From a virus: DNA of 64,000 nt. Of the stretch, positions 4,075-52,990 are shown piece after piece. The position numbers and the translations under genes were made by a program. The DNA lies in IMG/VR virus record IMGVR_UViG_3300012156_000141. The stretch is one strand, 5' to 3'. Every line of letters starts with the position of its first letter. Position 1 is the stretch's first letter. Under the pieces are notes generated by a model, which worked only from the letters and a program-made list of their open reading frames with translations, was not told the origin of the DNA and made no database searches.

Positions 4075-4100
4075 CTGAAAATAAGAAAAAAGGAGTGTTT

Positions 4101-4673
4101 ATGAAATCACAATTGTTAGCTATTATTGGAAAATCAGGTTCTGGAAAAACCAGTATAAAAGCAGCTTTGGAAAAGAAAGGCTTTACTTCACTTCCAGAAT
4201 GTACAAATAGAGAGACTAGACCCGGAGAAGTAGATGGAAGAGAATACTATTTTTTTCCTGAAGAGAGAATGAAAAAGCCTGATGTTATTTGTAAAAAGGA
4301 ATATAAAACAACAAAAGGATTATGGATTTATGGGATTTTAAAGACAGAGTTAGAGGCAGATAAACAATATGTTGTAATTATTAACCCTTATCAGTATCAA
4401 GAATTAAAGAAAGAATATGAGGAGGCAGCAGACATAAATGTTTTTTACATAGATACTAATGAAGAGAATCGGATGACAAAACTGATTCAACGTGAGATGG
4501 AAAAACCCAACCCAGATTATCAAGAGTTATGTAGACGTTTTTGCACAGATGCATACGACTATTCAAATGACAATATCGATATGAAAAACTTAAGAAAAAA
4601 TGTCTTTTTGCTATATAACAATTATAAACAGTCTATTGAAAAAATGGTTGATGAATTGATGACATACATTTAA
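4101..4673 (+). CDS. Guanylate kinase-like nucleoside monophosphate kinase
   Basis: P-loop GKSGSGKT and TNRETRPGEVDGREYYF signature. ATG at 4101 follows AAGGAG. Confidence 0.85.
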   Translation: MKSQLLAIIGKSGSGKTSIKAALEKKGFTSLPECTNRETRPGEVDGREYYFFPEERMKKPDVICKKEYKTTKGLWIYGILKTELEADKQYVVIINPYQYQELKKEYEEAADINVFYIDTNEENRMTKLIQREMEKPNPDYQELCRRFCTDAYDYSNDNIDMKNLRKNVFLLYNNYKQSIEKMVDELMTYI

Positions 4674-16893: not shown

Positions 16894-19080
16894 ATGAAAC
16901 AAAAAAAACCAGATTATTTTACAATTATATTTACAGCAGTAGTGGGTTATCTTTTTGTTATTATTTTAGCATTACACTCTGGCCCAAGTTATTTGGAAAA
17001 GAAGAATGTTTTTACGGCAATAATAGAGGGTGCTTCATCACTAATAAATAGCCCAGCAAATATAGTTGTTAATTCAGGCACATTTATATGTTTAGCTTAC
17101 TATACCGTAATTTTTGCTTTTGTGGCATTATGGGCAAAAATACAAAGTGAAGTAAATGGGAAAATTGATAAAGAGCCGGGTGGTACTGCTAAGTTTGAAG
17201 TGAATTTTAAAAAATTTCAAAAAAAATATACCGATTTAAAAAATCCCTTCAACAATATTATCTTAACAGAAAATATAGCTTTAAACATGAACTCTTATCA
17301 AACTAGACGAAATAACAATGTATTAGTCGTCGGTGGCTCTGGCTCTGGTAAAACAAGATTCATGATTAAACCAAATTTGTTACAGGCAAATTGTTCATTT
17401 GTAATCACTGACCCAAAAGGTGAAATTTTGGAATCAGAAGGAGCAATGCTGGAAAAACATGGTTATCGTATCAAAGTATTTAATCTGGTGGATATGATGC
17501 ATTCCAATTCATATAACCCGTTTAAATACATAAGAGATGATTTAGGCGTTCTAATGATGATTAACTGCCTTATTAAAAATACAAATAATGGGCAAAAAGG
17601 TGGTGACCCATTCTGGGAAAAATCTGAAACAGCACTATTGCAAGCTTTGGTTTTCTATTTAAAAGACAATCCTTCAATACCTGATTCAGAGAAAAACTTC
17701 ACAGCTGTTATGAAACTTTTACAAGCAGCAGAAGTAAATGAAAACGACCCAAATACACAATCGCCATTAGATAAATTATTTGCAAAACTTGAAACTGAAC
17801 AACCCAATAGTATTGCCGTAAAACAATATAAAACATTTAAAATGGGTGCTGGAAAAACATTGAAATCAATTCTTATTTCCTGTGCGGTAAGATTAACCGT
17901 ATTTAACCTGCAGGAAATTGAAAATCTTACTATGATGGATGACTTAGAATTGAAACGTATTAGCGATGAGAAGACTGCTTTGTTCGTAGTTATTCCAGCA
18001 GCCGACGATACCTACAACTTCTTGGTATCTATGATGTACTCTCAATTATTTGAAACACTATATTATCATGCTGAAAATGAGTGCCCTTATGAATATTACA
18101 TTAAAGAAAGCAATGATGTATTAGCAATTGCTGAAAAAAATGAAAAGGGAGATAAGTATACTGAAAGAGATGCAAAAAGGTTATTGGAATCGATTAAACG
18201 AGCACCAATCAAAAGAAGTAATAAAGGTAAATATATAGTAAAAGCAAGAGGGTTTGAAAAAACATTTAATAGTGAAGAAAATGCTAAAGAATACAAAGCA
18301 AGAATAGATAAAGCTGAAATAGTGAGAGGTGCAATCAGACTACCTTATCCAGTAAGATTTCTGTTAGATGAATTTGCGAACATCGGCCAAATTCCAGATT
18401 TCACTAAAAAGCTCGCAACAATGAGGCAATATGAAATCAGCTGTACGATCATTCTTCAAAACTTAGCTCAGATTAAAACTATGTATAAAGATGATTGGGA
18501 ATCTATAGTTGGAAACTGTGATTCTTTCCTGTTTTTGGGTGGTCAAGAGTACTCAACTCTAGAATATATTTCTAAACTACTAGGGAAGACAACTATACAA
18601 AATAGAGGCAGAAGCAGAAACCGTAGCGCAAAAGGTGGTGGTTCTGGTTTGTCTATTCAAAATCAAGGAAAAGAGCTTATGGCTGTTAATGAAATATCAA
18701 CAATGCCTAAAGATGAGTGCTTACTGATTATAAATGGTATGAACCCATTTTATGATAAAAAATATAATTTGGAAAAGCACCCTCACTTTGATGAGAGTGG
18801 AGATTCTAAAAAAGGCAGCAAGTTTGATTGTAAGAAAAAAATCTTGAATTATGGATTGCAACAGCAAAATAAAAAAAATAAATTATCGGCAGGCGAAGAA
18901 ATTGGTGCAAATCAATACATTGGAAAAGCAGAGCAATTAGATCATGTATTCAAAGATAATAATATTAACTCTATTAGTGATGCTGTAGAGAGAATAACAT
19001 TAAAGAAGGGTCAGGTTATTGTAAATGAAAGTATTAACAAGGAAACTGGAGAAGCAGAGTTTGATTATAACATTGATTAA
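16894..19080 (+). CDS. virD4: Type IV coupling protein VirD4/TraG
   Basis: N-terminal TMs, GGSGSGKT, ITDPKGE, DPFWE, FLLDEFANIG, LQNLAQ. Confidence 0.95.
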   Translation: MKQKKPDYFTIIFTAVVGYLFVIILALHSGPSYLEKKNVFTAIIEGASSLINSPANIVVNSGTFICLAYYTVIFAFVALWAKIQSEVNGKIDKEPGGTAKFEVNFKKFQKKYTDLKNPFNNIILTENIALNMNSYQTRRNNNVLVVGGSGSGKTRFMIKPNLLQANCSFVITDPKGEILESEGAMLEKHGYRIKVFNLVDMMHSNSYNPFKYIRDDLGVLMMINCLIKNTNNGQKGGDPFWEKSETALLQALVFYLKDNPSIPDSEKNFTAVMKLLQAAEVNENDPNTQSPLDKLFAKLETEQPNSIAVKQYKTFKMGAGKTLKSILISCAVRLTVFNLQEIENLTMMDDLELKRISDEKTALFVVIPAADDTYNFLVSMMYSQLFETLYYHAENECPYEYYIKESNDVLAIAEKNEKGDKYTERDAKRLLESIKRAPIKRSNKGKYIVKARGFEKTFNSEENAKEYKARIDKAEIVRGAIRLPYPVRFLLDEFANIGQIPDFTKKLATMRQYEISCTIILQNLAQIKTMYKDDWESIVGNCDSFLFLGGQEYSTLEYISKLLGKTTIQNRGRSRNRSAKGGGSGLSIQNQGKELMAVNEISTMPKDECLLIINGMNPFYDKKYNLEKHPHFDESGDSKKGSKFDCKKKILNYGLQQQNKKNKLSAGEEIGANQYIGKAEQLDHVFKDNNINSISDAVERITLKKGQVIVNESINKETGEAEFDYNID

Positions 19081-19187: not shown

Positions 19188-19472
19188 ATGAAGAAAATAT
19201 ATAAGTTGATTCCATTTATGCAGATTTTAATTCCAATGAATGTCTTAGCAAGTGAAGCAGCGGCAGACAGATTGGACCGTAGAATGTTAGAAGCAATATT
19301 GATTTTTTTAAGATATTCATCATATCCACTTATTGCTATATCAATCGGGATGTTTGTTTATTCAATAAAAAATGAAGATGGTGCTATGAAGACATCATCT
19401 TTAAAAATATTTGGAATTTCAATGTTATTGTTTTCTCTTCATTCTCTTTGTGTAGCTTCTGGTCTTTGCTAA
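19188..19472 (+). CDS. VirB2/TrbC-like pilin, copy 1
   Basis: Leader plus two hydrophobic helices around SIKNEDGAMK. Confidence 0.6.
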   Translation: MKKIYKLIPFMQILIPMNVLASEAAADRLDRRMLEAILIFLRYSSYPLIAISIGMFVYSIKNEDGAMKTSSLKIFGISMLLFSLHSLCVASGLC

Positions 19473-19492
19473 TAAAAAAAGGAGATTTAACC

Positions 19493-19891
19493 ATGGTGAA
19501 AAATTTAAAATCAAAGATTTATGAGAAAAGAGAAAGCTTAAAAGAATTTGCTGCTTCAAACAAGACCATTCAAGCAGGACAAAATGCATTAATTAGTGCT
19601 GGGTTTTTAGCATTAACACCATTGAGTACATATGCACTTGCCACTGTAGCTAATCCAGGAGAGATGATTAATAAACTTATTTCAGTAGTTTGTGACATTT
19701 TTAGAATGATTGGTGCGATTTTACTTGTTTGGGCAATCGGCCAGCTTGTATTGGCATTTAAAAATGAAGATGCTGATTCAAAATCAAGAGCCATGCTGGT
19801 TTTAGTTTGTTCAATATTATTACTATCACTAAAAACATTGTATACAGCTGTTACTGGTGTAGATGTTGGAGATTCAGGACTAGGTCTGTAA
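19493..19891 (+). CDS. VirB2/TrbC-like pilin, copy 2
   Basis: Long leader and GQLVLAFKNEDADSKSRAMLVL. ATG at 19493 follows AAGGAG. Confidence 0.7.
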   Translation: MVKNLKSKIYEKRESLKEFAASNKTIQAGQNALISAGFLALTPLSTYALATVANPGEMINKLISVVCDIFRMIGAILLVWAIGQLVLAFKNEDADSKSRAMLVLVCSILLLSLKTLYTAVTGVDVGDSGLGL

Positions 19892-19944
19892 TATGATTAA
19901 AAATATAGAGGCTTTTGGTTATCCAAAGGCTTCTATCAAAAACA

Positions 19945-20162
19945 AAGCAGAGTACCACATCCTCTAAGGGTGTGGGTGAATGCGTTCGATTTTACATACT
20001 ATTTAGAGGAAATAAAAGTAATTGGATTTTATGAGTTAAATAAAAGTATTCCGGTAAAACGGATAGCGGTCTAATGAACAGACCATGGCGGTACGAACCC
20101 TAACGGGTCACGGCTACCTGAAACTATCACTTCTAAGCATTGCGAAAGTGGTGGTAGTTCAT
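19945..20162 (+). mobile_element. Non-autonomous IS200/IS605 derivative: left-end hairpin plus TnpB-type right end/omegaRNA scaffold, no tnpB
   Basis: Hairpin CCACATCCT-CTA-AGGGTGTGG (19955-19975). 3' part CCGGTAAAACGGATAGCGGT...CTATCACTT..AAGTGGTGGTAGTTCAT. Bases 20025-20162 closely match the reverse complement of 48804-48944. Confidence 0.7.
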
Positions 20163-20178
20163 AAAAAGGAGTATTTAT

Positions 20179-20586
20179 ATGAGAACTATAAGTAAAAAGA
20201 ATATATGTATTTTTTTATTAACAATATTTTTGGGTATGTGTTTTTTTAATATTACAAATACTTATGCAACTAATACTTCAACTGAAGCAGCAGGAGAAAC
20301 AATGAGCGTTATAATAGGAGAAGGTGAGGAACTTAATATCGGAGGCGATAGCGATGCGGCGGGCCAATTAGAAGAATTTATTATTGGCTCTGACGATAAT
20401 CCTGGGTTTCTAGATATTGTATCGCAATTGGGTTTTGTGCTAATAGCCTTTGGCCTTGGCCAAATTTTTTTGGCATTTAAAGATGATAATGCAGATTCTA
20501 AAGCCAGAGGAGCAATGATCCTTTTAGGTGGAGTATTCTGTGTGATGATAAAAGTTATATTAGGAAGCATAGGTGTAACTTTATAG
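20179..20586 (+). CDS. VirB2/TrbC-like pilin, copy 3
   Basis: Signal-like leader and GQIFLAFKDDNADSKARGAMIL. Confidence 0.7.
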   Translation: MRTISKKNICIFLLTIFLGMCFFNITNTYATNTSTEAAGETMSVIIGEGEELNIGGDSDAAGQLEEFIIGSDDNPGFLDIVSQLGFVLIAFGLGQIFLAFKDDNADSKARGAMILLGGVFCVMIKVILGSIGVTL

Positions 20587-46320: not shown

Positions 46321-46379
46321 GTCCAAAATATAATATCTGACATACTAATAATAAACTATATTTCATTTGGAGGTATTTG

Positions 46380-48737
46380 ATGAATTCAAAATTAAACGAG
46401 ATATTATTAAACCGCAAAGACATGATTTCTATTAACTATGAAAAGGATGATTCCTCGGAATTAGATAAATGGCTTATTGCTGCCACTGCATCAAAAAATT
46501 TAGAGGGCTTAGGTTATAAGTTTTCATCTAGACTAATTGAACAACTAAAGAAAACCTCTGTAGAAGAAATTTTAGAAATTGAAAATCAGATTTCAGCTAA
46601 TATAGAAAACAGACAAGGAGACGATGTTGATTATAAGCCAATGTATCCGGGTTTTCCTGATAGCGTGATGGATAAGTCAAAGGCAGAGTTGTATTTAGAT
46701 GCTATCATTTATGCAGAAAGCGGATTTAAGACATTACCTCTGGAATATGAGTTCTATGGAAAAGAAAAAAAAGAAGAGGTAATCAATTTATCAAAAAAAC
46801 TTCAAAATTTAAAGACAATTGATGTTGGAACACAAAAGGATGTAATTGAAATTGCAGTTAATCTAATGTCTTCACCAATTGCCTATTCACCAGATGATAA
46901 ATGTGATTTGGCTATAATCTCAAAAGAAGTTAAATCATTTAAAAAGAATATTCCAGGTAAAATTCCTAATAAAGAGAACTTGGCCTGGATGGCAGCCTCA
47001 TTAGCTAGACAAGATAGAAAAAATTCATTTATAGTACATTTGACCAGTGCAACAGATATTTTAAGGGCATTAACTGTCCGCAATGGAGGAGACGCATCAT
47101 TAACTCAACCAGTAAAATTCGGAAAGATACCCGCTTATGAAGTGAAACAATATGCTATACAATTAGCAAAAGTAAAAAATATTGAAAAAGATATATCTCA
47201 AAGACCAGAAACTTTTAAAAGAGTTTTTAAACAATATCATCTACCAAATATGTATAAAACACAGCTAAAAAGTGAACTAAGTATGGAATCTCGGGATAAG
47301 ATGATTGCTGTCTCGAATCACTTGTATGAGGATAAATTGGAACCAACCTTTGAGGCACGAAGAAATCAATTGATTAAAGAAAATGATTTCAAATCTTTAA
47401 TCAATTTGTATTACGCTGTTCCGGGAAAATTGGCTGCAGATATGGATTATATTTTGATTCTGGCTGATAAAATAGCTAAAGACCATAGTGATTATATAGC
47501 CGGAAAAGAAAAAAATTATGCCGAAGTTTGCAAAGTGTTTAATTCTGTAGTAAACAGAATTGCGCCAAACACATTATTAAGAATGCAATCAGCAATTGGT
47601 GAAAGAACAGCTGAAAAACAATATCGTGTATATGCAGCAAATAAAGGGTTGAGCAATCCTTACATGAAAGAAGATACACGTAATCCGTTACCTAAAAAAA
47701 TTGTTGAAAGTATAAATAATATTATTGATAATGACCTGTCAATGAGGTATTCTAAAAAAAGACCGTTAGGAAAAGTTTATTTAGATGATGATTTGAAAAA
47801 TGTCAAAATCCCTTCAGCTCAAAGAACTAATTCAAAAGGAGCACAGACCTTAAGTTATGGTTCTCAAATAGATATTAGAAAAAATACAGAGAAGTTAAGA
47901 AGCTTTATATGGTGGACTAACGCTGGACATGATAGTATTGACATTGATTTGTCTGCAACATTTTATGATGAGAACTGGAGAAAATTCACCGATGTTTCTT
48001 ATTACAATCTCAAGGGTAATGGATATGGTGTCCATTCTGGAGATATTAGGGATGGCGGTAGTCCTAATGGAAAAGGTGCAGCTGAGTTTATAGATGTTGA
48101 TTTGTCGAACTTAAAAGCAAAAAATGTTGGATATGTAGTTTTTTCAGTGAATAACTTTAGTGAACATACCTTCAGTAATACACCATGTAAATTTGGTTGG
48201 ATGGAATTGGAAGAAAAAGAAAATTTCTTATTTGATCCACTAGCAGTGCAAAAGACAGTTAACTTAAATTGTCCTAGTACAAAAGCAATAACAATGACCT
48301 TGGATGTAGAAAACGAAAAAATTATCTGGATGGATAGAAATCCAAGAAACGTGAAAACCTTTGTTATTAATCATAAAGCCAATAATGTAGAAACACATGC
48401 TAGTTCAATGATGGTAGAGGCTTATAAAGCAATTAATTTGCCAGCACCATCTTTGCACCATTTAATGTCTTTACATATCATGTCAAGAGGTGAGTTAGTA
48501 GAAGATCCTAAAGAGGCAGATGTTATTTTTAGTCTCAACCGAATTAATGAACCAAAGGAATTTCCTAATATGAAAGAGAATATTTGCGCATATGACAATG
48601 ACGTAATATTAGGAGATCTGCTATCTACAGAATTATCCATGAAGGATACAGAATACTTTGAGAAACTTGCAAAGCAAATGGAAACAGATAAAGTCAAAGA
48701 AAATCTAGAACCTTCAAAAGATGGAATAACAAAATAG
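46380..48737 (+). CDS. Large TerD-domain protein (helical N-terminal region plus C-terminal TerD)
   Basis: FIWWTN..IDIDLSA..SYYNL..VHSGDIRDG..GAAEFIDVDL. N-terminal ENLAW..SATDILR. Confidence 0.75.
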   Translation: MNSKLNEILLNRKDMISINYEKDDSSELDKWLIAATASKNLEGLGYKFSSRLIEQLKKTSVEEILEIENQISANIENRQGDDVDYKPMYPGFPDSVMDKSKAELYLDAIIYAESGFKTLPLEYEFYGKEKKEEVINLSKKLQNLKTIDVGTQKDVIEIAVNLMSSPIAYSPDDKCDLAIISKEVKSFKKNIPGKIPNKENLAWMAASLARQDRKNSFIVHLTSATDILRALTVRNGGDASLTQPVKFGKIPAYEVKQYAIQLAKVKNIEKDISQRPETFKRVFKQYHLPNMYKTQLKSELSMESRDKMIAVSNHLYEDKLEPTFEARRNQLIKENDFKSLINLYYAVPGKLAADMDYILILADKIAKDHSDYIAGKEKNYAEVCKVFNSVVNRIAPNTLLRMQSAIGERTAEKQYRVYAANKGLSNPYMKEDTRNPLPKKIVESINNIIDNDLSMRYSKKRPLGKVYLDDDLKNVKIPSAQRTNSKGAQTLSYGSQIDIRKNTEKLRSFIWWTNAGHDSIDIDLSATFYDENWRKFTDVSYYNLKGNGYGVHSGDIRDGGSPNGKGAAEFIDVDLSNLKAKNVGYVVFSVNNFSEHTFSNTPCKFGWMELEEKENFLFDPLAVQKTVNLNCPSTKAITMTLDVENEKIIWMDRNPRNVKTFVINHKANNVETHASSMMVEAYKAINLPAPSLHHLMSLHIMSRGELVEDPKEADVIFSLNRINEPKEFPNMKENICAYDNDVILGDLLSTELSMKDTEYFEKLAKQMETDKVKENLEPSKDGITK

Positions 48738-48770: not shown

Positions 48771-48799
48771 TTTACATTTTGCTATTTATTTGGTATTAT
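48771..48799 (+). promoter_or_regulatory. sigmaA-like promoter pointing into the omegaRNA relic from its 3' end
   Basis: TTTACA-N17-TATTAT with TG at the extended -10 position. Confidence 0.5.
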
Positions 48800-48803
48800 A
48801 CCT

Positions 48804-48944
48804 ATGAGCTACCACCACTTTCGCAAAGCTTAGAAGTGATGGTTTCAGGTAGCATTGACCCACTAAGGTTCGTACTACCACGGTCTGTCCATCAGACCGC
48901 TATCCGTTTTACCGGAATACTTTTATTTAATTCATAGTAAAATC
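48804..48944 (-). mobile_element. Orphan TnpB-type IS200/IS605 right end/omegaRNA scaffold
   Basis: Inverted copy of 20025-20162. Hairpins GGTCTG..CAGACC and CCATCACTT..AAGTGGTGG, ending GTAGCTCAT. Confidence 0.7.
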
Positions 48945-49011
48945 TTGTTTCAGATAGTTTTTCTCGTTTTAAATAGTTTTTTCTTGTTTCAAATCCCATA
49001 AACATTAAAGA

Positions 49012-52775: not shown

Positions 52776-52936
52776 GTGAACTACCTACCACTTAAATACT
52801 GACGGCTTTTGAAGTGGATGCAAATCCGTCTTTGACGGCGTTCAACCATATCACTGACGTGGTTGCTTCTGAAAGGGAGCCTGTTTACCAGACTAAGCTA
52901 CAGAAATCTCACCGCTTAAGGAGGTGGAGTATTCTT
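52776..52936 (+). mobile_element. Non-autonomous IS200/IS605 derivative with an IscB/HEARO-type omegaRNA 5' part
   Basis: Starts GTGAACTACC. Four internal hairpins, then GTTTACCAGACTAAGC (52883-52898), then a terminal hairpin CTCACC..GGTGGAGTATTCT. Confidence 0.6.
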
Positions 52937-52990
52937 TAAAATGATAAAAAACAGGCATCTCACTTAGTGATATGTCTGTTTTTATTACGA

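What the first reader, a model, noticed from the sequence alone, without database searches (positions are those of the whole stretch)
19945..20162. tnpB-less IS200/IS605 relic inside the pilin cluster may provide both a promoter and a guide RNA
Seen: a left-end-like hairpin, a CATACTA motif (19995) and a TnpB-type right-end scaffold ending 17 nt before pilin 3. A terminator-like hairpin lies upstream (about 19905-19935), and no other CATnnTA was seen before 20179. Known: TnpB omegaRNAs take their guide from the 3' flank and can load TnpB or nuclease-dead TldR proteins in trans. Inference: the relic is the 5' leader of the pilin3-virB6-prgI transcript, and its guide would be the pilin RBS and start (AAAAGGAGTATTTATATG). 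This suggests domestication as a regulator of transfer genes.
Basis: partly seen in the sequence, partly recalled or inferred. Interest (0 to 1): 0.6.

Follow-up and report, generated by a model that had tools for sequence, protein, structure and literature searches.

The report
Gene-less mini-transposon with guide-RNA scaffold
The structured stretch between two small membrane-protein genes of this plasmid's transfer operon is a 224-base, gene-less miniature of an IS200/IS605 jumping element that still carries both transposon ends and the guide-RNA scaffold of its lost TnpB nuclease, which is a real but already described kind of element with no sign of having become a regulator.

Summary
Window 19939-20162 (+) is a non-autonomous IS200/IS605 (IS605-group) mini-element with three parts:
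- a left end that matches the left ends of tnpA/tnpB-bearing relatives (profile E 3e-5);
- the last 28 codons of tnpB (75 of 86 TnpB queries hit here, best E 4e-5);
- a right-end omegaRNA scaffold (custom covariance model 60.7 bits, E 6e-16) that ends at 20162, 16 nt before the ATG.

A second copy lies inverted at 48804-48981, 90% identical over 134 nt and without a recognisable left end. A probable third, more diverged mini-element lies at 52776-52941 (-).

The 64 kb hold no tnpB, tldR or tnpA. The "guide" equals the flanking RBS simply because a guide is always the DNA next to the right end, so it is not evidence of retargeting. I found no second target for it.

CATACTA at 19995 matches only the low-information core of the plasmid's recurrent promoter-like motif. 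It sits 184 nt from the start codon, against 20-63 nt at other genes, and about 0.4 such matches are expected by chance.

The upstream hairpin is a native intercistronic stem-loop without a U tract.

Gene-less omegaRNA carriers (PATEs) are already published, and this scan has met similar relics on other DNA. Verdict: an ordinary insertion. Domestication is unsupported.

The parts
19905..19936 (+). Native intercistronic stem-loop downstream of the second small-membrane-protein gene. It has 14 bp, two of them G-U pairs that work only on the + strand, and no U tract follows it.
   Evidence: Fold. The terminator scan found none. Read directly from the sequence.
19932..19938 (+). Candidate target motif (TAM) just outside the left end. 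The heptamer ends in TATCA and overlaps the 3' arm of the stem-loop.
   Evidence: The same motif lies 14 nt upstream of the left-end hairpin in L008 and L012, with variants TATTA in L005 and TATAA in L033. It also lies next to the third element at 52942-52946 (-).
19939..19984 (+). Transposon left end (LE), with its subterminal hairpin at 19955-19975.
   Evidence: Alignment to the LE of L005, L008 and L012. LE profile hit at E 3.3e-5. In the stem, an A-T pair replaces the G-C pair of the relatives.
19988..20074 (+). Remnant of tnpB: the last 28 codons plus the TAA stop.
   Evidence: tblastn with 86 full-length TnpBs: 75 hit here, best E 4e-5. A TnpB family HMM finds only this frame in the window, at E 3.4e-5.
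19995..20001 (+). CATACTA, a core match to the plasmid's recurrent promoter-like motif. It lies inside the tnpB remnant.
   Evidence: The second copy has a different heptamer at the homologous place.
20040..20162 (+). omegaRNA scaffold and right end (RE). It has two 5' hairpins (the second carries the conserved TGAAC loop and contains the tnpB stop), a short three-way region, a terminal helix (20123-20132 paired with 20146-20155) and a 7-nt tail.
   Evidence: R1 60.7 bits, E 6e-16. R2 ends at 20162. nhmmer E 3e-9. Covariation. Folds.
20163..20178 (+). The 16 nt in guide position. They are the native flank and include the RBS of the third small-membrane-protein gene (ATG at 20179).
   Evidence: Position relative to the RE. 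The only exact match in the window is this site itself.
48804..48981 (-). Second copy (B): RE scaffold plus about 29 tnpB codons, with no recognisable LE. It abuts the stop codon of an Hsp20 gene.
   Evidence: Inverted repeat I1: 134 nt, 90%. R1 47.6 bits, E 6e-12. R2 17.4 bits, E 9e-4. nhmmer E 1e-7. No LE found.
52776..52941 (-). Probable third mini-element (C), more diverged. It has TATCA, then 14 nt, then an LE-like hairpin at its left, and the same RE tail decamer at its right. The RE abuts the stop codon of the sigma gene on the opposite strand.
   Evidence: The RE decamer occurs exactly three times in the window, at A, B and C. Local alignments to A: the LE score is reached in 0.5% of shuffles and the RE score in 0 of 2000. 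Not hit by R1, R2 or the HMMs. Fold z-score is only -2.2.

Best explanation
Window 19939-20162 is a 224-bp non-autonomous IS200/IS605 (IS605-group) mini-element of the kind called PATE-like. It has a left end with its hairpin, then an internal deletion that removed tnpA and all but the last 28 codons of tnpB, then the right end carrying a compact TnpB omegaRNA scaffold.

It inserted 3' of a TATCA site, between a native intercistronic stem-loop and the ribosome-binding site of the third paralogous small membrane-protein gene of the type IV secretion operon. The RBS and the gene were left intact.

Shown: the identity of each part, its strand, its boundaries, and the absence of any transposase or nuclease gene in the 64 kb.

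Inferred:
- It is transcribed passively as part of the operon mRNA.
- If a cognate TnpB from a full-length copy elsewhere in the host or on the unseen rest of the plasmid loads this RNA, the guide (the flank) would direct cutting of copies of this site that lack the element (TATCA followed by the RBS region). That is the normal selfish homing function, not regulation.
- A cognate TnpA could move the element in trans.

Copies B and C are further insertions of the same family on the same plasmid.
For: - tnpB linkage and strand. The same scaffold directly overlaps the 3' end of tnpB in metagenome loci L002 and L004. The L004 fragment retrieves 130 TnpB proteins of about 455-465 aa carrying PF01385 and PF07282.
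- tnpB remnant.
- Right end. Ten tnpB-linked relatives share the 5' hairpins, the TGAAC loop, the terminal helix and the tail. nhmmer gives E 3e-9, R1 gives 60.7 bits, and R2 ends at 20162. Covariation: 91% of cells paired and 7 of 10 pairs changed on both sides, against at most 52% paired in the slid controls.
- Left end.
- Family. L008 is a complete element: LE, a divergent Y1 tnpA (PF01797, E 3e-35), tnpB and RE.
- No tnpA in the window.
- Literature. PATE elements often encode omegaRNAs that must be used in trans (PMC10055086).
Against: - No empty site and no related plasmid could be found, so the insertion event itself is inferred.
- The scaffold is only about 90 nt past the stop codon, against about 190 nt in the relatives. 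It lacks their long central hairpin, so it may not be a competent omegaRNA.
- The 3' module scores weakly: 11.4 bits.
- Copies A and B are 89% identical in the scaffold but 58% identical just upstream. This could hint at constraint on the scaffold, although intact pairs show the same trend: 76 against 54, and 85 against 69.
- There are no expression data.
Confidence: 0.85

Rival explanations
1. One reading: the mini-element has been domesticated. Its CATACTA would act as the promoter of the downstream three-gene transcript. Its scaffold plus the RBS 'guide' would load a TnpB or a nuclease-dead TldR in trans to regulate the transfer genes.
For: - The core heptamer is identical to the one found 24-38 nt upstream of five other genes.
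- The spacer holds no sigma-70-like promoter on the + strand and no other CATNNTA.
- The scaffold would then lie wholly within the leader, directly followed by the RBS.
- Copy B has a different heptamer at the homologous place, so the motif in A needed two substitutions.
Against: - The motif carries only five fixed bases. Its density of 219 matches over both strands of the window gives about 0.4 matches expected in 224 nt.
- It sits 184 nt from the ATG, against 20-63 nt at other genes.
- Its flanks are not AT-rich like those of the other sites: a position matrix ranks it 560th.
- The 64 kb hold no TnpB or TldR.
- Known TldR guide RNAs lie next to tldR and match a distant promoter flanked by a TAM (10.1101/2023.11.30.569447). 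Here the guide matches only its own flank.
- At its own locus the flank is preceded by the right end, not by TATCA.
Confidence: 0.08
2. An independent small RNA gene on the minus strand, antisense to the operon. It would be driven from within the start of the downstream gene and end at the 19905-19936 hairpin, which has a T run on that strand.
For: - Copy B is preceded, in that orientation, by a good sigma-70-like promoter with an extended -10 (10 of 12 matches, 48771-48799) right after a terminator.
- My first reading of the A/B differences suggested G-U pairs on that strand.
Against: - In L002, L004 and ten viral loci the scaffold is on the tnpB strand and overlaps its stop codon.
- With the correct helix register, the A/B difference in the terminal helix is U-G against C-G on the + strand and would be a mismatch on the other strand.
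- The fold z-score is -5.3 on + against -3.3 on -.
- The 19905-19936 stem has two mismatches on the - strand.
- No promoter-like site was found for copy A on the - strand near 20163-20230.
Confidence: 0.03
3. A structured operon leader or intercistronic RNA element with no transposon origin, such as an antitermination or processing signal, whose likeness to a transposon end is due to chance.
For: - The spacer folds strongly (z -5.3).
- Rfam gives no family match.
- The flanking genes have no named relatives.
Against: Three independent profiles built only from transposon-borne sequences hit adjacent parts of the spacer, in the correct order and on the correct strand: left end E 3e-5, TnpB C-terminus E 3e-5, right-end scaffold E 6e-16. 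A second copy lies in an unrelated context.
Confidence: 0.02

Closest known systems
PATE-like non-autonomous IS200/IS605 elements that encode omegaRNAs (Geobacillus stearothermophilus; Meers et al. 2023, PMC10055086)
   Same: It has no protein-coding gene. It keeps a left and a right end like those of autonomous relatives. It carries an omegaRNA scaffold that would have to be used in trans by a TnpB from another element.
   Different: - This one retains 28 tnpB codons.
- Its scaffold is shortened and lacks the central hairpin of its relatives.
- It sits on a conjugative plasmid-like element, 16 nt upstream of a start codon.
- Mobilisation and copy number in the host could not be examined because no genome is held.
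Full-length IS605-group elements of gut Firmicute phages and metagenomes (loci L005-L015; L008 has tnpA and tnpB)
   Same: The left-end flanks and hairpin, the TATCA-type motif outside the left end, the 5' omegaRNA hairpins with the TGAAC loop, the terminal helix, and a right-end tail ending in TTCAT or TTCAC.
   Different: These elements are about 1.5-2.3 kb with intact tnpB (and tnpA in L008). Scaffold identity to copy A is only 52-58%. The window copy has an internal deletion of everything between the left end and the last 28 tnpB codons.
TldR guide-RNA repressors (Wiegand et al., 10.1101/2023.11.30.569447)
   Same: A TnpB-type scaffold followed by a guide. In principle it could bind promoter or RBS DNA.
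   Different: - TldR guide RNAs are encoded directly downstream of a tldR gene, and none is present here.
- Their guides match a distant conserved promoter next to a cognate TAM.
- Here the guide matches only its own flank, which is not preceded by the TAM.

Membership tests
Non-autonomous IS200/IS605 element (PATE-like) | Left end with a subterminal hairpin like that of autonomous relatives | tested here: met
   (E 3.3e-5). One stem pair is changed on both sides.
Non-autonomous IS200/IS605 element (PATE-like) | Right end with a hairpin and a conserved terminal motif like that of autonomous relatives | tested here: met
   R2 ends exactly at 20162 but scores only 11.4 bits.
Non-autonomous IS200/IS605 element (PATE-like) | No intact transposase or nuclease gene inside | tested here: met
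   Only 28 tnpB codons remain. No tnpA.
Non-autonomous IS200/IS605 element (PATE-like) | Insertion 3' of a fixed short target motif, without target duplication | tested here: inconclusive
   TATCA or a one-base variant lies at the same distance from the hairpin in A, C, L005, L008, L012 and L033. No empty site was found to fix the exact junction.
Non-autonomous IS200/IS605 element (PATE-like) | Mobilised in trans by a Y1 TnpA of a related autonomous element in the same cell | not testable with these tools
   No genome is held for the window. A relative with a Y1 tnpA exists (L008).
TnpB omegaRNA (reRNA) | Encoded across the 3' end of tnpB and running to the right end, on the tnpB strand | tested here: met
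   The tnpB stop codon lies inside the second scaffold hairpin. The arrangement is the same in L002, L004 and L005-L015.
TnpB omegaRNA (reRNA) | Conserved scaffold structure supported by covariation | tested here: inconclusive
   The 5' module is met. The terminal helix is present but weak. The long central hairpin of all ten relatives is missing.
TnpB omegaRNA (reRNA) | Expressed, bound and used by a TnpB protein | not testable with these tools
   No transcript data. No tnpB in the 64 kb.
TldR-type RNA-guided repressor system | A nuclease-dead TnpB homologue encoded next to the guide RNA | tested here: not met
   The TnpB HMM against all six-frame ORFs finds only the 28-codon remnant. Pfam on 39 ORFs finds none.
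TldR-type RNA-guided repressor system | The guide matches a separate target flanked by the cognate TAM | tested here: not met
   Only the guide's own flank matches exactly. The one 1-mismatch site (4087-4102) is a generic RBS. The same holds for copies B and C.
Plasmid-specific CATnnTA promoter-like motif | Core heptamer 20-63 nt upstream of a start codon, in AT-rich DNA | tested here: inconclusive
   The core is met (19995). The distance is 184 nt, and the flanks are GC-richer, so a matrix ranks it 560th. The motif is not enriched overall: 219 found against 239 expected.

The most novel reading that the evidence does not exclude
The omegaRNA scaffold, fused as a leader directly to the RBS of a transfer gene, makes that gene sensitive to TnpB. 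In a host that carries the cognate full-length IS, TnpB would bind the leader, hold the RBS as its 'guide' and process the RNA. Transfer-gene expression would then depend on the host's transposon content, and the element's own CATACTA would supply the transcript.
Probability: 0.05. Interest if true: 0.65.

Novelty: new member of a known kind. Interest (0 to 1): 0.3.

Why it matters
This settles an unexplained structured spacer in a transfer operon: it is a transposon scar, not a new RNA class or regulator.

It also gives concrete handles for follow-up:
- exact ends for the element;
- a candidate TATCA target motif;
- a predicted empty site;
- an unusually compact scaffold, about 120 nt from its first hairpin to the right end, shared by two copies. 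If it is still bound by TnpB, it would mark a natural minimal omegaRNA for this family.

Three insertions of one IS family on a plasmid with no nuclease gene in 64 kb also show how such plasmids collect guide-RNA-bearing passengers from their hosts.

Tried and rejected
- Strand. I first inferred the opposite strand from apparent G-U pairs between copies A and B. I withdrew this when the scaffold proved to overlap tnpB 3' ends and the helix register was corrected.
- Left-end hairpin. I first placed the 19955-19975 hairpin inside the tnpB remnant, because tblastn alignments ran back to 19970. I withdrew this when the left ends of L005, L008 and L012 matched it.
- Rfam: no match at the gathering threshold, and only unrelated low-score matches at E up to 10.
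- blastn of the spacer against PLSDB plasmids and GenBank phages: no match.
- Scans of species-representative genomes with the downstream protein and with a 30-mer of the scaffold: nothing.
- PLSDB and IMG/VR searches with the next downstream 270-aa protein: no relatives. No empty allele could therefore be examined.
- Chance pattern matches: L001, L003, L028 and L029.
The rest of the plasmid and the host could not be searched for tnpB, tnpA or tldR.
- A position matrix for the CATnnTA motif was dominated by the AT-richness of its flanks and did not help.
- Copy C was not recovered by any profile or covariance model. It rests on pairwise likeness and motif spacing only.
- A script with my own dinucleotide shuffle timed out.

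Full report
**Context.** The finding lies in the 287-nt spacer (19892-20178) between two + strand genes, 19448-19891 and 20179-20586. Both encode paralogous small hydrophobic proteins (BLASTP E 5e-12). A third paralogue lies just upstream (repeat family D4).

These genes sit between a type IV coupling protein (16894-19080) and PrgI and VirB4-like genes. Pfam and NCBIfam give no name to the small proteins or to the next 270-aa protein.

**Is the structure real?** The spacer folds far better than shuffles on the + strand (z -5.3) and less so on the - strand (z -3.3). Rfam gives no match at the gathering threshold, and only unrelated low-score matches at E up to 10.

**A second copy.** The repeat search showed that 20030-20163 is 90% complementary to 48803-48936. 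The element therefore occurs twice, in opposite orientation and in unrelated surroundings.

I first guessed that the RNA strand was the - strand at copy A. I based this on apparent G-U pairs and on a good sigma-70-like promoter facing copy B. That guess was wrong, as the next step showed.

**Link to tnpB.**
- A 22-mer shared by both copies found two metagenome contigs, L002 and L004.
- In both, the same hairpins directly overlap the 3' end of a tnpB reading frame. L002:527-913(-) hits PF07282, and L004:1-162 is the C-terminus of a TnpB cut by the contig end.
- That C-terminal fragment retrieves 130 proteins. Most are 455-465 aa with PF01385 and PF07282, and the named ones come from Lachnospiraceae and Oribacterium.
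- tblastn of 86 full-length members against the window hits only 19970-20071 on the + strand (75 queries, best E 4e-5) and, weakly, the homologous part of copy B.
- A family HMM run against every six-frame ORF finds only that frame (E 3.4e-5).
- The frame ending at the TAA at 20072-20074 encodes the last 28 residues of a TnpB. The stop codon lies inside the second scaffold hairpin, as in the intact relatives.

**The right end.** Ten viral-contig relatives with intact tnpB (L005-L015) plus L002 and L004 share one architecture:
- a first hairpin at the end of the ORF;
- a second hairpin with a conserved TGAAC loop;
- a variable middle region;
- a terminal helix;
- a short tail ending in TTCAT or TTCAC, where homology between independent copies stops.

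Evidence that copies A and B belong to this family:
- An nhmmer profile of eleven such right ends, with no window sequence included, hits copy A at E 3e-9 and copy B at E 1e-7.
- On the two 5' hairpins, 91% of cells pair and 7 of 10 pairs change on both sides. Slid controls give at most 52% paired.
- Covariance model R1, built from seven tnpB-linked sequences only, scores copy A at 60.7 bits (E 6e-16) and copy B at 47.6 bits (E 6e-12), both on the predicted strands.
- Model R2 for the terminal helix and tail places both ends exactly, at 20162 and 48804. It is weak for A (11.4 bits, E 0.27) and modest for B (17.4 bits, E 9e-4).

One difference stands out. Copies A and B have only about 90 nt after the stop codon, against about 190 nt in all relatives. 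They lack the relatives' long central hairpin, and another hairpin is shortened.

**The left end.**
- Full-length relatives carry, upstream of tnpB, a hairpin with the same stem as their right-end helix, set between two conserved flanks. A short motif ending in TATCA (TATTA in L005, TATAA in L033) lies 14 nt further upstream.
- L008 is a complete IS605-type element: this left end, a divergent Y1 transposase gene (PF01797, E 3e-35), tnpB and the right end.
- Window 19932-19984 has the same motif, the same flanks and the same stem. Its loop is shortened, and one stem pair is changed on both sides.
- A profile of four left ends finds only this place in the window (E 3.3e-5).

Copy A is thus a complete mini-element spanning 19939-20162: left end, 28 tnpB codons, right end. 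The window holds no tnpA and no other tnpB or TldR-like gene.

**The insertion site.** The TATCA motif overlaps the 3' arm of the 14-bp stem-loop at 19905-19936. With the element removed, the stem-loop would be followed directly by 20163-20178 and the ATG.

The stem-loop never had a U tract. Its two G-U pairs work only on the + strand, and the terminator scan finds nothing there. It is therefore a native intercistronic stem-loop, not a terminator that would force a new promoter downstream.

I could not find an empty site or any related plasmid.

**The other copies.**
- Copy B (48804-48981, -) keeps the scaffold and about 29 tnpB codons. It has no recognisable left end, and it abuts the stop codon of an Hsp20 gene.
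- A and B are 89% identical in the scaffold but 58% identical in the 90 nt upstream. Intact pairs show the same trend (76 against 54, 85 against 69). This fits two related parent copies and does not require selection after decay.
- Copy C (52776-52941, -) shares the right-end decamer, which occurs exactly three times in the window. It also has a left side with TATCA, 14 nt, and then a left-end-like hairpin.
- In alignments of C to A, the left-side score is reached in 0.5% of shuffles and the right-side score in none of 2000. No profile or model recovers C, so I rate it as probable only.
The end motifs argue for a TnpB-type mini-element on the - strand.

**Promoter claim.**
- CATNNTA is not enriched in the window (219 found, 239 expected).
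- It does sit 20-63 nt upstream of more than twenty start codons, often as CATAATA or CATACTA. This agrees with an earlier follow-up on the sigma operon.
- The site at 19995 has the perfect core and is the only one in the spacer.
- Against it: the core carries five fixed bases, so about 0.4 matches are expected in 224 nt; it lies 184 nt from the ATG inside the tnpB remnant; its flanks are not AT-rich; and copy B has a different heptamer at the homologous position.

The site may be a promoter, but the evidence does not rise above chance. Read-through from the operon is an equally good source of transcripts.

**Guide claim.** By position, the 16 nt at 20163-20178 are the guide. This holds for any insertion of this family, because the sequence beyond the right end invariably forms the guide (10.1101/2023.11.30.569447).

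At its own locus the matching DNA is preceded by the right end, not by the TATCA motif, so the locus would not be a target. The natural target is an element-free copy of the site, which is the homing function described for TnpB (PMC10055086). The guides of A, B and C have no other near-perfect match in the window apart from a generic RBS.

**Comparison with known systems.** Meers et al. state that PATE elements often encode omegaRNAs that must be acted on in trans by TnpB proteins from other IS elements (PMC10055086). TnpB can process its own mRNA into omegaRNA (PMC10278001). Embedding in a longer transcript would therefore not in itself prevent use of the scaffold.

TldR systems differ in the two features tested here. 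They have an adjacent tldR gene, and their guide matches a distant target flanked by a TAM. Neither is met.

This scan has already reported several gene-less TnpB scaffold relics on other DNA.

**Verdict.** The regulatory and domestication reading is unsupported, and the ordinary explanation fits all the data: a passenger mini-transposon, one of three on this plasmid. The remaining points of interest are the compact scaffold and its position directly against an RBS.

Noticed in passing
window 48771-48799 (+): A strong sigma-70-like promoter (10 of 12 matches, extended -10) lies just after the terminator of gene 46377-48737. It points into the right end of copy B, so it would be antisense to the scaffold and then to the Hsp20 gene. 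The 'guide' position of copy B is the reverse complement of its -10 region.
   Followed up: partly
window 52776-52941 (-): A probable third mini IS200/IS605 element lies between a bidirectional terminator and the stop codon of the sigma gene. Its guide position would be antisense to the last codons of the sigma gene.
   Followed up: partly
window 20040-20162 and 48804-48926: Both copies share a compact scaffold that lacks the long central hairpin present in all ten tnpB-linked relatives. Copy B also has a substitution in the otherwise nearly invariant TGAAC loop, and it forms a more stable middle helix than copy A.
   Followed up: partly
window 19985-20044 compared with 48922-48990 (-): The tnpB remnants of copies A and B differ by two indels of 3 and 9 nt, both in frame. 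This suggests the two parent copies diverged while still coding.
   Followed up: no
window, upstream of more than 20 genes (for example 16859, 21913, 39005, 41211, 46341, 49433-): The heptamer CATAATA, CATACTA or CATTATA recurs 20-63 nt upstream of start codons, although the loose pattern CATNNTA is not enriched overall.
   Followed up: partly
L002:533-1012 (-): This metagenome contig carries a 5'-truncated tnpB (residues about 242-454) that still has its full right end, next to AIM24-family and clostripain-family genes. It is another example of decay from the 5' side.
   Followed up: no
L008:888-3191: A complete IS605-type element on an IMG/VR contig, with a left end, a divergent Y1 tnpA, tnpB and a right end. 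Subgroup L010/L011/L013/L015 appears to be tnpB-only, with homology between copies starting only about 40 nt before the ATG and no such left-end hairpin seen.
   Followed up: partly
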